Of a stretch of 64,000 bases of DNA, positions 22,187 through 32,908 are shown piece after piece. The notes under the pieces were generated by a model, which was not told the origin of the DNA, ran no database searches, and worked only from the letters and a program-made list of their open reading frames with translations. The position numbers and the translations under genes were made by a program. Positions within the stretch are counted from its first letter, which is position 1; each line of letters begins with the position of its first letter. Origin of the DNA: Octopus sinensis (Eukaryota); contig NC_043008.1 in assembly GCF_006345805.1 (NCBI RefSeq), positions 71,424,001-71,488,000 on the forward strand, in the 5' to 3' direction.

Positions 22187-22936
22187 TATATGTATATATA
22201 TATATATAGCTCGCCTATATATATATATATATATATATATATATATATATATATATATATATATATATATATATATATATATATATATATATGTATATAT
22301 ATATATATATATATATATATATATATATATATATGTATATATATATGTATATATATATATATATATATATGTATATATATATGTATATATATATATGTAT
22401 ATATATATATAATATATATGTATATATATATATATATGTATATATATATATATATATATATATATGTATATATATATGTATATATATATGTATATATATA
22501 TATATATATATATATATGTATATATATGTATATATATATATATGTGTATATATATATATCTATATATATGTATATATATATATATATATATTTATATATG
22601 TATATATATATATGTATATATATATGTATGTATATATATATATATATGTATATATATATGTATATATACATGTATATATATATATATATATATATATATA
22701 TGCATATATATATATACTTATATATATACATATATATATATATATATATATAATATATATAAATATACATATATATACATATATATATGCATCTATATAT
22801 ACATATATATATATATATACATATATATATATATACATATATATATATATACATATATATATACATATAATATATATATATATATATATATATATATATA
22901 TATATATATATATATATATATATATATATATATATA
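22187..22936. repeat. ~750-bp imperfect (TA)n array abutting the PLE 3' end
   Basis: Direct reading. Confidence 0.95.
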
Positions 22937-23903
22937 ACGGGAAGCTTTATGAAAATAAACAAAAGACGAAGGCAGGTGGAAAAAAAACGAACAATTGTAT
23001 TAGTATGGCGCTCAGGAAATATAAATAAAACAAGTCTTTAACGTTTCGAGCCTACGCTCTTCAACAGAAAGATACACAGAGAGAGAAAAACACAGAAAGA
23101 AGGAGAGAAAAAAAAATGCGTCCAGTAGCTAACGAATCAACATGGCGATCTGATTTCGGCCAGAGGTCAAAGATCAAACATGAGACGCGAGAGCGAAATA
23201 AGGGGAGATAATAGGGTTGATAAAAGGGTTGAGGGACCAGCTAAAAGTGCGTGGGAGGGGTCTGGATGTGTGTATGTATAGGGTTGGTGTATGTATTAGT
23301 ATATATAAGGGTGTGTGTGTGTGTGTGTGTGTGTATGAGAGAGTATTAGTGCGTAAGATTGGTCTGGACATGCGTATGTATGGGGTTGGTGTATGTATTA
23401 GTATGTATTAGTATGTATTAGTACGTATTGGTATGTATAGGTATGTGTGTGTGTGTGTGAGAGAGTATAAGTGCGTATGCGGGGTCTGGACGTGTGTATG
23501 TATAGGGTTGGTGTAAGTATTAGTATGTACTAGTATGTATTAGTACGTATTAGTATGTATTAGTTGGTGTGTGTATTAGTATGGCACATCATATGTGATG
23601 TGATGTGTAAAGTCATGTGGTGTAGTGAGGAGAAGAGGGGGAGGGGGAGAAGAGGGGGAGAAGAGGGGGAGATAAGGGGAGGGGAAGAAGAGGGGGAGGA
23701 GAAGGGGCAAGAGGATGGGGGAGAAGGAAGGGGAGGAGGGGGATGAAGGAGGAAAGAGAGAGAGGGGGAGAGAGGGAGTGAGGGAGCAGAGGGAAGGGGA
23801 AGAGGGAGGGAGAAAGAGGGAAGAAGGGAAGGGGAGTAGGGGTGAAAGGATGAAGGACTGAAGAAGTAGGGGTCGGGGGGAGAAAGGATAGGTGAGGAGG
23901 GGG
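22937..23903 (-). repeat. 3' pseudo-LTR of the PLE (polypyrimidine region, three ~105-120-bp internal tandem units, hammerhead motif)
   Basis: Direct repeat of 25943-26717; internal unit ggtctgga..tgtata/gggttggtgtatgtattag at ~23259, ~23362 and ~23483. Confidence 0.85.
23033..23073 (-). ncRNA. Minimal type-I hammerhead ribozyme-like motif in the PLE pLTR (non-canonical core)
   Basis: Minus strand reads ucuuu-CUGUUGA-A-GAGC(GUAG)GCUC-GAA-ACGU-U-aaaga: stem I ucuuu/aaaga, 4-bp stem II, palindromic ACGU stem III. Confidence 0.6.
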
Positions 23904-23912
23904 AGAGGGGGG

Positions 23913-25819
23913 TTAGATGAGGAGGGGGGGGAGAGTTGAGACCAAATGGCGTATAAGAGCGAAGAGAGAAGATTAATTCCTGTTCACGGCGCAAACGGGA
24001 ATCCGGATGGCCTCTGTGTAAGGACAAACCGAACACAGATAGGTGTTGCAAGGAGTGACCGGTGGAGCGGAAATGGCGTGAGACCGGTGTGTCGTTCGCA
24101 AGGTGGATGTCACGAAGGTGTTCCGCGAACCGGTAAGCCAAGCGGCGTCCCGTTTGTCCGATGTACAAGGAATTGCAGAGAGAGCAAGAGATGCAGTAGA
24201 TAATATTGCTGGAGGTGCAGGTGAAGGAGTGGATGATGGGATAGGGTCGATGGTGGGTGCTAGTGAGGCGGGTGGTGTTGGAGAGGTAAGGGCAAGTGCG
24301 GCAACGTGGGCGGGAGCAGGGGAACGAGCCGGGTTGGGAGGTAGGGTCAGGGAAGGAGCTATGGATCAAAAGGTCTCGAAGGTTGTGGGCTCGTTTGAAA
24401 GAGGGGAGGGGTCGGTTAGGGAAGATGTGTGAAGTGGACGGGTCGGACTGGAGATGACGGAAAGCTCGAAGAATGGTGCGTTGGAGACGTAGGGTCGTGG
24501 GGTGGTAAGTGAGGGGAAAAGGGAGGCGGGAGACTACAGGGCGGGTTCGGGGAGAGAGAGCAGATACACGGTCCACGGACCGTGCTCTGGCAAGGGCGGT
24601 GTGGATAGTGGTGAGGGGGTATCCACGTAGGGTGAAGTGGTGAGCCATACGTTGAGACTGAGTCTCAAAGTCATGGTCGTCACTACAGAGCCTACGTAGA
24701 CGGAGGAATTGGGAATAGGGGATGGAAAGCTTGGTGTGTTCTGGGTGGGAGGAAGAGAAGTTGAGGTATGAGTGTGAGTCTGTGTGTTTGTAGTGAATGG
24801 AGGTGGTAAGAGTGGAGTGAAGAATGCTAACCGAAATGTCGAGGAAGGAGACAGAGGTGTTGGAGATAGTGGAAGTGAAGTGGAGGGCTGGATGGAAAGA
24901 TTGGACGAAAGAGAGGAAGGAATCTAGATGTTCGCGGGAGAGTGAGGTGGCACCGATAATGTCGTCAATATAACGACCATATAGTTCAGGAGTGGGACCA
25001 GTGAAATTAGAGAATATTTGGGCCTCAACATAGCCAACGAACAGGTTCGCATAGTTGGGGCCCATTCGCGTTCCCATGGCGACTCCCGAGACCTGATGGT
25101 AGAACTCGCCCGCGAACGAGAAGCAGTTCAGAGTAAGGACAAGTTCGGCCAGACGAATGAGTGTGGAGGTGTCAGGTACAGGGTTAGAGCGGAGGTCAAG
25201 AAAGTGTCGAAGGGCCTGCAGTCCTTCGTGGTGAGGGATAACAGTATAGAGGCTTCGGATGTCCATAGTAAAAAGGATTTTGGAGGAGCCGGGAGGAAAG
25301 GAGAAAGAGTTGAAAAGCCGGAGAGCATGGTTGGTATCGTGGATGTGGGAGGGAAGAGATGCTACTAGGGGGGCAAGGACACGGTCGAGGTATTTAGAGA
25401 TGAGCTCCGTGGGGCAGTTACAGGCGGAGACGATGGGGCGGCCAGGGTTGTTGGGTTTGTGGATTTGGGGGGAGGAAGTAAATGGTGGGGGTACGTGGGG
25501 TTCGCACAATTAGGTTGGATGCGGTGCGGGGGAGACGGGAGGACGAGATGAGGTCTTGGACGGTAGAGGATACCGTCTGTTGGTAGCTACGTGTGGGGTT
25601 AGAGGGCAGAGGGGAATAGAAGGAGGTGTCATTGAGTTGGCGGAAAGCCTCGGCCCTATAGAGGTCCGCGCGCCACACCACTACAGCTCCACTCTTGTCA
25701 GCCGGTTTGATGATAATGTCAGCGCGCCGTTGGAGGGAACGAAGAGCCAAGAGCTCAGCCGGGGAGATGTTGAGGCGGCGTTGGCGCCTGGAGAAGTTGA
25801 ACCGCTCCAATGCACGCAT
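23913..25819 (-). pseudogene. PLE reverse transcriptase and GIY-YIG endonuclease ORF, near intact (homopolymer frameshifts, 5'-truncated)
   Basis: [60 protein letters not shown], catalytic YIDD, FLDI, CSRPRCRTC knuckle, NIIYCISC..YIGQTGRRL..RFAEH, R..REQELI..L..PFGLN. A +1 frameshift in the G6 run (~25467-25472) joins ORF-track entries 25418..25993 and 23560..25509. The probable natural stop is at ~23913. Confidence 0.92.
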
Positions 25820-25942
25820 ATATATATATATATATATATATATATATAATATATATATATATATATATATATATATATATATATATATATATATATATAT
25901 ACATATATATATACATATATATATATATATACATATATATAT

Positions 25943-31270: not shown

Positions 31271-31374
31271 ACATCACTTGCTAGAACAGATATTGCAATC
31301 ATCTCTTACAGAGAATTTAGAACTAGCTTTTTAGCTTATATATATGTGTGTGTGTTTGTTTGTTTATATAATTT

Positions 31375-31690
31375 TTATTTTGTTATTTGTTTCAATCATT
31401 ACACTGCAGCCATACTGGGGTACCGCCTGAAGTTATTTCAGTCGAAGCAATCGGCACTACAACTTATTTACAACCATGGTTCTTATTCTGTCGGTCTCTT
31501 TTCCTGAACCGCAAATATACAGGGACATAAATACACCATCACCTGTTGTCAATCGGTGGTTGAGGATAAACACAAACACAAACACACAGGCACACAGACA
31601 AACACACATACACGCACACGCACATACACACGCACACACAAATATTCACAATAACTATCTTTCAGTTTCCGTCTACCAAATTCACTCAGA
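31375..31690 (-). mobile_element. SINE family A, 5'-truncated
   Basis: tttcagtttccgtctaccaaattcactca and gcagccatactggggtaccgcc match the reverse complement of family A. Confidence 0.8.
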
Positions 31691-32607
31691 AGACTTAATT
31701 TACCTCACTGAAGCAACGATTTCAGCTCTACAGTGGCATTTGGAGGCTCTTAAAAGAGTTTCATTATAAGGTACAACCCATTTGTTGTTTGCTTTTACAT
31801 TCTTATGAGATCCTCATTGTAAACGATGTTCCTCTGCAGAGAGATAGTCTCTCTCTTTCTGTTATTCTGTCTTTAGATAAGATAATAAAGATTAATATTG
31901 TATTTTAAATCAAATAGTAATTTTTCTCCGTTCAGAAAAAAAAAAAAAGTAATCGAGTGCTCGTGATTAAAAGATATCTCATAAAAATATAGGGAGACTA
32001 TCTATCTCAGACATCGATGTTTCGAGGTTTTTGACTCTTGTCGATGAGATCTACCTAAAAGTTGCAACTCTGAACGAACTTAATAGAGCTACAACTTTCT
32101 TTATAATTCAGTCAACACGTTGACTGATTTCCGTAACTAGTTCAGCCAATCAAATTAATTAACGGAGCATAGGTGCAAAGATGTGTTTAAGTATGAGAAG
32201 AATTTAGGTTAGTTAAAATATGTGACAAACAAGTGAAATATTTTCTCCACGCTAAATGTAATGTATTTGCCTCTAGCAGTTGAAATATGTGACAAACATA
32301 TTTCAATTAAACTAAATTCTGCTCATAAATTATATAACTTCTGTAACTGAAGAATTTCTAATTCGAAATTCCTTACATGTCTATGTGACATGTAAAATTT
32401 CGAATTCGTATTAGCAAATGTAAATGTGCAATGGGGAATAAATAATGCCAATATATATATATATATATATACATATATATATATATATATATATATATAT
32501 ATATATATATATATACATATATATACATATATATACATATATATACATATATATATATATATATATATATAATATATATATATATATTATATATATATAT
32601 ATATATA

Positions 32608-32821
32608 CATCGCCATGTTGATTCGTTAGCTTCTGCACGCATTTTTTTCTCTCCTTGTTTCTTTCCTGTTTCTTTTCTGTGTATCTTTTCTGTTGAAGAG
32701 CGTAGGCTCGAAACGTAAAAGACTTGTTTTATTTATATTCCTGAGCGCCATACTAATACAATTGTTTGTTTGTATTCCACCTGCCTTCATCTTTTGTTTA
32801 TTTTCATAAAGCTTCCCGTTA
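32608..32821 (+). mobile_element. Solo ~210-bp 3' end of the same PLE family as 22937-26717, with hammerhead motif, embedded in (TA)n
   Basis: Reverse complement of 22937-23150; contains ctgttgaagagcgtaggctcgaaacgta at 32690-32717 and ends gcttcccgtt|atata. Confidence 0.9.
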
Positions 32822-32908
32822 TATACATATATATATATATATATATATATATATATATATATATATATAATATATATATATATATAATATATATATATAT
32901 ATATATAT

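What the first reader, a model, noticed from the sequence alone, without database searches (positions are those of the whole stretch)
22187..32908. A Penelope-like family that appears to target, and possibly extend, (TA)n microsatellites
Seen: three pieces of one PLE family (22937-25817, 25943-26717, 32608-32821) share exactly the same 3' end (...AAAGCTTCCCGTT) followed directly by (AT)n. Their different 5' truncation points also abut (TA)n (25818-25942, 26718-26864, 32451-32607). The longest TA array in the window (~750 bp) sits at the 3' end of the ORF-bearing copy. Known: PLE GIY-YIG endonucleases prefer AT-rich DNA, and PLE RTs are related to telomerase RT. Inference: this family inserts specifically into (TA)n and may add or expand TA repeats during target-primed reverse transcription. 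That would link a retroelement to the extreme TA load of this genome. The apparent pLTR-ORF-pLTR layout could therefore be two insertions in one TA tract rather than a classical tandem.
Basis: partly seen in the sequence, partly recalled or inferred. Interest (0 to 1): 0.75.

Follow-up and report, generated by a model that had tools for sequence, protein, structure and literature searches.

The report
Penelope retrotransposon landing in TA repeats
These are pieces of a young jumping gene of a known class (Penelope-like) whose thousands of copies sit inside TA microsatellites, likely because its enzyme cuts there; in the sites that could be compared it did not measurably lengthen the repeats, so it likely uses the genome's TA repeats rather than making them.

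Summary
Targeting holds; extension does not. The three pieces belong to a young Neptune/Nematis-type Penelope-like element (PLE). Genome-wide, 4,460 of 5,734 exact 3' ends are followed by (TA)4 (background 1-3%; SINE control 6 of 30), and 43 of 61 5' ends also abut (TA)4. Some copies sit in TATC, TAGA, TATG or TACA repeats, in several cases on both sides, so the flanks are target DNA. None of 200 listed exceptions sits in pure (TAA)n. The element's own unit holds only about 7 nt of TA there, almost invariant. At a paralogous SINE microsatellite, filled sites minus the element (median 53 nt, n=19) equal empty ones (53, n=37). Roughly a tenth of sites show 9-20 bp target duplications. No allelic empty site was obtained. 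The window's pLTR-ORF-pLTR look is two independent insertions (14/207 differences, against 0-5 in real tandems). Junctions suggest a nick between T and A. (TA)n bias is published for Neptune, Naiad and Hydra PLEs, and this scan noted TA-targeting Penelope ends on other DNA of this genome. New here is the base-level footprint.

The parts
22185..22935 (.). Imperfect (TA)n array of about 750 bp, the 3' flank of copy 1; read as pre-existing target
   Evidence: 86% matches; interruptions per 100 nt 2,11,11,17,17,17,9,0; copy 1 itself is about 0.7% from sister copies
22207..22215 (-). 9-nt inverted copy of the SINE head at 26866-26874, inside the TA array; possible fold-back scar around the whole TA/PLE block (inferred)
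   Evidence: inverted arms around plain TA tracts occur at 5 of 877 other tracts, 3 of them with no PLE end in the arms
22936..25817 (-). Copy 1: young, 5'-truncated PLE (starts at position 1649 of the 4.54-kb unit), with RT, linker, GIY-YIG endonuclease and 3' pLTR
   Evidence: Pfam RVT_1, E 6.5e-8; 97% to a natural full unit
23035..23080 (-). Minimal type I hammerhead-like motif in the pLTR, core CUGUUGA instead of CUGANGA; activity untested
   Evidence: (CTGTTGA in 164 of 170 family motifs); no hammerhead row in the Rfam scan; fold z -0.37
23935..24204 (-). C-terminal GIY-YIG endonuclease (IIY-C-x2-C-x2-C-x2-LYIG, R, two H, E, N)
   Evidence: homologs carry PF01541
24292..24318 (-). C-x4-C-x2-C linker zinc-finger-like motif (Neptune/Nematis mark)
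   Evidence: definition in PMC8557442
24961..24981 (-). RT catalytic motif YIDD
25818..25942 (.). (TA)n between the 5' end of copy 1 and the 3' end of copy 2; absent from real tandem units
25943..26717 (-). Copy 2: older 775-nt 3' fragment of a different subfamily, an independent insertion; degenerate hammerhead-like motif at 26042-26083
   Evidence: (14/207 from copy 1; at least 9 differences from any of 39 long copies)
26718..26865 (.). (TA)n 5' flank of copy 2
26866..27086 (+). SINE-like repeat bounding the tract (SINE label recalled, not from a call)
   Evidence: 20 similar heads in held sequence
32451..32608 (.). (TA)n 5' flank of copy 3
32609..32820 (+). Copy 3: 212-nt solo pLTR end, truncated at the family's 195-222-nt hotspot; hammerhead-like motif at 32678-32722
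32821..32909 (.). (TA)n 3' flank of copy 3

Best explanation
The three pieces are separate insertions of a young Penelope-like retrotransposon with a C-terminal endonuclease, whose copies sit inside TA microsatellites, likely because the endonuclease nicks between T and A in pre-existing (TA)n, and which adds little or no TA at the sites compared. Shown: a fixed 3' end, TA or TAnn repeats on both flanks, no pure (TAA)n among the listed targets, a 4.54-kb unit with only about 7 nt of TA after the pLTR end, and equal lengths of filled and empty paralogous sites. Inferred steps: (1) the GIY-YIG domain, perhaps helped by the linker zinc finger, nicks T^A where TA recurs every 2 or 4 bases; (2) reverse transcription starts at one fixed site on the RNA, where the primer can pair with UAUAUAU but about one base is enough; (3) the many solo copies of about 210 nt come from reaching the 5' end of a linear transcript, while long tandems and mini-arrays come from a circular or multimeric RNA; (4) the second strand is also cut at T^A and joined with 0-5 nt of microhomology, usually with no or a short target duplication and sometimes 9-20 bp. 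Long tracts attract insertions in proportion to their length, which is why the longest tract in the window holds two.
For: 3' ends: 4,460 of 5,734 followed by T(TA)4; 70 of 70 position-ordered copies continue TTA. 5' ends: (TA)4 within 20 nt in 43 of 61, against 4.5% background; 21 of 38 long copies. Controls: SINE head 6 of 30, sister PLE family 19 of 30. Flanks are target DNA: TATC on both sides (L003, L138), TAGA on both sides (L105), TATG on both sides (L082). Hand counts of perfect 12-mers in the listings: TAGA 10 and TACA 18 of 100, TATC 8 and TATG 14 of 100. So 3-nt homology to the template is not favoured. No pure TAA or TAT repeat appears among those 200, although each is about 14 per 10 kb in background against about 5 for each tetranucleotide. 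Nick register: at 5' junctions without microhomology the flank ends in T in 21 of 24 (about half expected, p=0.0003); microhomology of 2 nt or more in 43 of 79 against 12-15% expected. No gain: SINE-internal site filled-minus-element median 53 (n=19) against empty 53 (n=37), p=0.61, length-weighted expectation 62-69; 16 empties from SINE-centred loci, median 55. 3' imperfect tract median 32 against 24-34 in background. Internal junction length constant in 95 of 100. Two insertions. Template: 20 of 45 first-pass copies that reach 195 nt stop at 195-222 nt, against 0 of 28 second-pass pLTRs (p=8e-6). Arrays of identically deleted 259-569-bp units end exactly at the pLTR end and all keep the hammerhead-like motif.
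Against: No allelic or orthologous empty site was read, so a gain of a few TA units per event is not excluded. Pure TA runs 3' of insertions are longer than background (median 20 against 11-13). Both-side pure totals (median 38, n=26) exceed lenient length-weighting (26, P=0.018), though not the weighting matched to how sites were picked (36-39). Interrupted target duplications exceed shuffles (13 of 69 against mean 7.0, max 13 of 200 shuffles; 13 of 96 against 5.0). L115 has (TA)4.5 between a duplicated 17-nt piece of the element and the element. 15 of 61 5' flanks are not TA-type (some are junction-calling errors). The SINE test dropped 11 of 30 loci. The nick position, the promoter and the RNA circle are inferred from DNA scars only; the second-pass comparison may reflect more processive events.
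Confidence: 0.8

Rival explanations
1. The RT adds TA repeats, telomerase-like or by slippage on its UAUAUAU stretch or on a read-through (UA)n tail, so insertion lengthens or creates the tracts.
For: Longer pure 3' runs than background; the window's 750-bp array; L115; 1 of 100 internal junctions has one extra TA unit; kinship of PLE RT with telomerase RT (PMC8557442).
Against: Filled equals empty at the paralogous SINE site. Tetranucleotide flanks start right at the junction with no TA insert. At L257, L265 and L275 the whole normal-length SINE microsatellite lies 3' with nothing added. The 750-bp array is heavily interrupted while copy 1 is about 0.7% diverged. Family flanks are under about 1% of genomic TA.
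Confidence: 0.06
2. Target choice is set mainly by pairing of the nicked primer with the conserved UAUAUAU just 3' of the start site on the RNA, with a loosely AT-preferring endonuclease.
For: The stretch is kept in two families whose pLTRs are only about 78% alike (own family; sister family in 7 of 100 listed rows). Per site, (TA)n is used roughly 5-10 times more than TAnn repeats (my rough scaling).
Against: TAGA and TACA targets (2-nt match) are at least as common as TATC and TATG targets (3-nt match). (TAT)n would give a 3-nt match and is not used. The T-ending bias at 5' junctions cannot come from first-strand priming. The stretch could be a TATA box instead: a TCACT follows it, and a similar arrangement is described in PMC3846280. 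In the Anolis element, initiation is at a site not homologous to the cut DNA (PMC11167929).
Confidence: 0.15
3. Insertion is only AT-biased, and the TA flanks grew afterwards from the element's short TA end or were kept by selection.
For: TA runs are dense here (about 2 per kb); SINE heads are also TA-adjacent above background (6 of 30).
Against: Copies 99-100% identical to their sisters already have long TA on both sides. The variable 5' ends carry no TA seed yet abut TA in 43 of 61. Insertions split the SINE's own microsatellite, which exists in empty SINEs. (TAA)n is avoided.
Confidence: 0.03

Closest known systems
Neptune and Nematis clades of EN+ Penelope-like elements (PMC8557442, Craig et al. 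2021; seen: abstract, passages, section 15; figures and supplements not seen. Arkhipova 2006 not held, known only as cited there)
   Same: Single ORF, RT then C-terminal GIY-YIG, CX2-5CxxC linker, CCHH motif, DKG motif, partial tandems forming pLTRs, frequent 5' truncation. The paper says the linker was hypothesised to mediate microsatellite bias in Neptune.
   Different: No 30-40-bp tail seen (0 of 53 pLTR/5'UTR junctions end within 70 nt). Hammerhead-like core has U at position 6. The base-level target rule (T^A, period 2 or 4, not TAA) was not found in the papers returned by searches.
Naiad and Hydra PLE clades (PMC8557442, passages)
   Same: (TA)n as preferred target; target duplications hard to see inside microsatellites.
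   Different: Naiads have an N-terminal endonuclease and DKA; Hydra lacks CCHH and has DKT and a CxCX5C linker. This family has none of these marks.
PAc, Poseidon element of Anolis carolinensis (PMC11167929, Frangieh et al. 2024; seen: parts 1-2 of 4 of the text)
   Same: Internal initiation of reverse transcription at a fixed site near the pLTR/body junction; AT-rich target; both strands cut.
   Different: PAc cuts at ATT, starts at two sites (hence the tail) and at a site not homologous to the target. Here there is one end register, the template can pair with the target, and the target is periodic TA.
Minimal PLE hammerheads and animal non-LTR retrozymes (PMC4209133, passages; PMC7761336, passages)
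   Same: Minimal type I hammerhead in the pLTR; proposed circular RNA template giving more-than-unit copies; short head-to-tail arrays.
   Different: The arrays here are internal-deletion derivatives of the coding element itself. The core variant CUGUUGA was not in the passages read.

Membership tests
EN+ Penelope-like element | Single ORF with RT and GIY-YIG endonuclease | tested here: met
   no held copy gave an unbroken full ORF from the ATG (longest 763 aa)
EN+ Penelope-like element | Partial tandems forming pLTRs, with 5' truncation | tested here: met
   135 exact pLTR/5'UTR junctions genome-wide; 19 pLTR pairs compared
EN+ Penelope-like element | Hammerhead motif in the pLTR | tested here: inconclusive
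   Minimal-type layout present in 170 family motifs, but core CUGUUGA in 164; no Rfam hammerhead row; cleavage not testable
EN+ Penelope-like element | Optional 30-40-bp tail (second end register) | tested here: not met
   0 of 53 held junctions stop within 70 nt of the pLTR end; most of these loci were picked as ORF-bearing or tandem copies; the tail is described as optional (PMC8557442)
Neptune/Nematis-type PLE | CX2-5CxxC linker between RT and a C-terminal endonuclease | tested here: met
   C-x4-C-x2-C at 24292-24318, conserved in the 13-sequence alignment
Neptune/Nematis-type PLE | CCHH motif with two cysteines between GIY and YIG | tested here: met
Neptune/Nematis-type PLE | DKG motif (not DKA or DKT) | tested here: met
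   DKG in L064 and homologs; the window copy reads DKS
Neptune clade proper (against Nematis) | Placement in an RT phylogeny with named reference elements | not tested
   No named reference sequences in hand; PMC8557442 reports Neptune as paraphyletic
Naiad/Chlamys | N-terminal endonuclease | tested here: not met
   The endonuclease is C-terminal
Hydra | No CCHH; DKT; CxCX5C linker | tested here: not met
Telomerase-like repeat-adding RT | Reiterative copying of a short template onto DNA ends, giving net repeat gain | tested here: not met
   indirect, since no allelic empty site was read

The most novel reading that the evidence does not exclude
Completed insertions add little TA, but the endonucleases of this and sister Penelope families may nick (TA)n far more often than they insert. 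The self-complementary nicked strand would fold back or slip and be extended, so the elements would still lengthen TA tracts without leaving a copy. The inverted arms around the window's 1-kb tract, and around a few plain tracts, would be scars of this, and PLE activity would help drive the genome's TA load.
Probability: 0.07. Interest if true: 0.72.

Novelty: new member of a known kind. Interest (0 to 1): 0.32.

Why it matters
Microsatellite bias of Penelope-like elements is on record but unexplained; PMC8557442 names it as a target for in vitro work. This young family with thousands of copies gives exact predictions: a nick at T^A, TA recurring every 2 or 4 bases, (TAA)n ignored, one start site, and two template classes. 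These can be assayed and can test the linker zinc-finger hypothesis. It also weighs against the more exciting idea that a telomerase relative writes the genome's TA repeats, and warns annotators that pLTR-(TA)n-ORF-pLTR layouts here are stacked insertions.

Tried and rejected
Empty alleles from public runs: L075 with four contig runs and L102 with two raw-read and two contig runs gave no flank-to-flank joint; the tool skips the TA repeats and raw coverage was about 3% of each run. One run from another study (X19) carried the same 3' junction at L075. Rfam scan: only microsatellite-driven chance hits, no hammerhead. PDB sequence search with the alignment: 0 hits. Folding of the hammerhead-like region, the truncation hotspot and the start-site region: no z-score below -0.4, so no structural block is shown at the hotspot. 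Splicing as the origin of the mini-array deletions: one junction checked by eye (L171), not GT-AG; not pursued. A truncation hotspot at the predicted hammerhead cut (about 103 nt from the end): not seen among 67 lengths. A classical tandem in the window: rejected. TA as the element's own transcript tail: rejected by tetranucleotide flanks and 5' TA. Arkhipova 2006 could not be read. No structure or complex prediction was run.
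Full report
Observation. The three pieces and their TA flanks are as described, to within one base. The window lies in a 2.72-Gb animal genome, likely an octopus (inference from recalled repeat sequence and size; not from a call). [quoted passage not shown] It has 599 database homologs, the best at 53-58% identity; the few named ones are from corals and snails. 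By the definitions in PMC8557442 this is a Neptune/Nematis-type PLE; no tree with named references was made.

The real unit. I fetched 10-kb stretches for 39 of the 40 ORF matches plus the window's own place. Full copies read: truncated pLTR, then GTTATATATTATGCG..., a 5' UTR of about 620 nt, an ORF starting about 1,000 nt upstream of copy 1's truncation point, and a pLTR; the unit is 4.54 kb. There is no long TA inside the unit. The junction occurs 135 times exactly, and its spacing is the same in 95 of the 100 listed of 147 matches; one has an extra TA unit and four are 1-2 nt shorter. The family is young: copy 1 differs from 39 others by a median of 8 of 1,195 ORF bases. No held copy gave an unbroken ORF from the ATG; many breaks may be assembly errors in homopolymers (inference).

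Two insertions, not a tandem. In 19 real tandems the two pLTRs differ at 0-5 of about 208 positions. Copies 1 and 2 differ at 14 of 207, and copy 2 differs from every long copy at 9 or more. Copy 1 starts inside the ORF after about 125 nt of TA. The simplest order is copy 2 first, then copy 1 into the TA on its 3' side (inference).

Targeting. The terminal 18-mer occurs 5,734 times (reversed control 0). 4,460 are followed by T+(TA)4, which departs from the element's own continuation at the eighth base. Background is 1.0-1.5% in phase and 2.1-3.0% in either phase. I took 70 of the first matches on contig C1, in position order. All 70 continue TTA, 59 continue with (TA)4 and 3 are internal junctions. 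43 of the 61 with a visible 5' junction have (TA)4 within 20 nt, against 4.5% background; 9 were longer than the stretch held. Among long copies the figure is 21 of 38. Controls: a SINE head (38,723 matches, first 30 read) is followed by (TA)4 in 6 of 30, and a sister PLE family (3,887 matches, first 30 read) in 19 of 30. So other repeats are TA-adjacent too, but much less so.

The flanks are target DNA. Some copies sit in TATC, TAGA or TATG repeats on both sides (L003, L138, L105, L082). Among listed non-TA exceptions I counted by hand 10 TAGA and 18 TACA perfect 12-mers in 100 of 135 rows, and 8 TATC and 14 TATG in 100 of 109 rows. None was a pure TAA or TAT repeat, although those are about three times as common in 303 kb of background as each tetranucleotide. 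The rule is TA recurring every two or four bases, not AT richness. At 5' junctions with no microhomology the flank ends in T in 21 of 24 (about half expected), and 43 of 79 junctions have 2 nt or more of microhomology against 12-15% expected. With the 3' end read as CCCGTT|A, both fit a nick between T and A (inferred).

Extension. Many copies landed in the microsatellite inside a common SINE, which gives paralogous empty sites. Of 43 matches, 30 were fetched and 19 were usable. Four had elements longer than the flank held and seven lacked the left anchor. Two of those seven (L266, L267) have long left repeats, and counting them as long moves the median from 53 to 54. Filled-minus-element median is 53 nt against 53 in 37 empties (p=0.61) and 62-69 expected under length weighting; 16 empties from SINE-centred loci give 55. 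Imperfect 3' tracts (median 32, n=67) match background (24-34).

Results against this reading. Pure 3' runs are longer than background (20 against 11-13). Both-side pure totals (38, n=26) exceed lenient weighting (26, P=0.018) but match weighting that requires TA on both sides (36-39). Target duplications that include an interruption occur in 13 of 69 informative sites against 7.0 in shuffles (maximum 13 of 200). The clearest are 9-20 bp (L122, L148, L133, L069, L094), so about a tenth of events duplicate some repeat. Two attempts to read true empty alleles failed, so a gain of a few units is not excluded.

Scale. About 5,700 ends with about 70 nt of flank each is about 0.4 Mb. Extrapolating from the background sample, which may be TA-rich, gives about 5.9 million TA runs and about 105 Mb. 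The family cannot account for the TA load.

The 750-bp array. It is interrupted throughout its middle while copy 1 is young, so it likely predates copy 1. A 9-nt inverted copy of the SINE head that lies beyond copy 2 sits at its far end. Inverted arms around plain TA tracts occur at 5 of 877 tracts. Fold-back copying may have lengthened the tract independently of the insertions, or the arms may be assembly artefacts; this is unresolved.

Template. 20 of 45 first-pass copies that reach 195 nt stop at 195-222 nt, while 0 of 28 upstream pLTRs of tandems do (p=8e-6; ten of the tandem lengths were taken). This fits a linear transcript starting about 215 nt before the pLTR end for the short copies, and a circular or multimeric RNA for the tandems; a survivor effect of processive events is the alternative. 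Several loci are arrays of identically deleted 259-569-bp units that end at the exact pLTR end and keep the hammerhead-like motif, as the circle model of PMC4209133 predicts; unequal crossing-over is not excluded. The motif's core is CTGTTGA in 164 of 170. The sister family keeps (TA)3.5-4.5 plus GCTCACGTGGTC after its pLTR end (7 of 100 rows), so that stretch likely matters, for priming, protein binding or as a TATA box (compare PMC3846280).

What is known. PMC8557442 (abstract, passages, section 15) reports (TA)n targets for Naiad and Hydra and cites the linker hypothesis for Neptune. PMC11167929 (parts 1-2 of 4) shows internal initiation and AT-rich cutting for a Poseidon element. PMC13282606 (passages) lists 31 recently active Penelope-like families in Octopus vulgaris, with no target analysis in the passages seen. 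PMC7761336 (passages) covers retrozymes. PMC6515669 (passages) added nothing. Searches returned no paper on PLE-driven TA expansion or on a T^A rule, judged from listings and the papers above. No supplements were read; those of PMC8557442 and PMC13282606 may hold family-level target notes. Earlier scan notes already record TA-targeting Penelope ends, retrozyme-like arrays and an A6U hammerhead elsewhere in this genome.

Verdict. A real, strongly supported (TA)n-targeting PLE family, a new member of a known kind. The extension idea is not supported beyond occasional target duplication. Interest 0.32.

Noticed in passing
L171-L179, L183 (e.g. G000:C4:78781109-78781915, C15:1450336-1451504, C8:39642797-39644260): Head-to-tail mini-arrays of identically deleted units (259-569 bp: pLTR end plus start of the 5' UTR), up to about five units, all retaining the hammerhead-like motif; most end exactly at the pLTR end before TA.
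   Followed up: partly
window 23035-23080; family-wide: Hammerhead-like core with U at position 6 (CTGTTGA in 164 of 170; sister family CTGTAGA in 14 of 15; other families CTGACGA or CCGACGA).
   Followed up: partly
L221-L250, L285, L294: Sister PLE family (end ...CGTAAACTCTCCC, 3,887 exact ends), also TA-flanked, with a conserved TATATAT and GCTCACGTGGTC after the pLTR end.
   Followed up: partly
window 22207-22215 and 26866-26874; L002, L227, L249, L251: Inverted arms on either side of TA tracts (X-(TA)n-reverse complement of X), suggesting fold-back copying or a long-read artefact.
   Followed up: partly
family pLTR, 195-222 nt from the 3' end (window copy 3): Strong 5' truncation hotspot in solo copies that is absent from the upstream pLTRs of tandems; possible transcription start.
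   Followed up: partly
L115: A 17-nt duplicate of the element's 5' end is separated from the element by (TA)4.5, suggesting a switch between cDNA and target during 5' joining.
   Followed up: no
L189: Short inverted pLTR piece at the 5' end of a full tandem, the classical PLE inverted junction.
   Followed up: no
L191-L220: The SINE head is flanked by TA in 23 of 30 and by (TA)4 in 6 of 30, so its own partner enzyme may prefer TA too.
   Followed up: no
window 21045-21437 and 32933-33948: Relics of other non-LTR retrotransposon ORFs (RTE- and CR1-like by recalled motifs; not searched).
   Followed up: no
L061/L062 and L190: L061 and L062 are the same filled locus on two small contigs; L190 repeats its 5' flank and pLTR, so some assembly duplication is present among the counts.
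   Followed up: no
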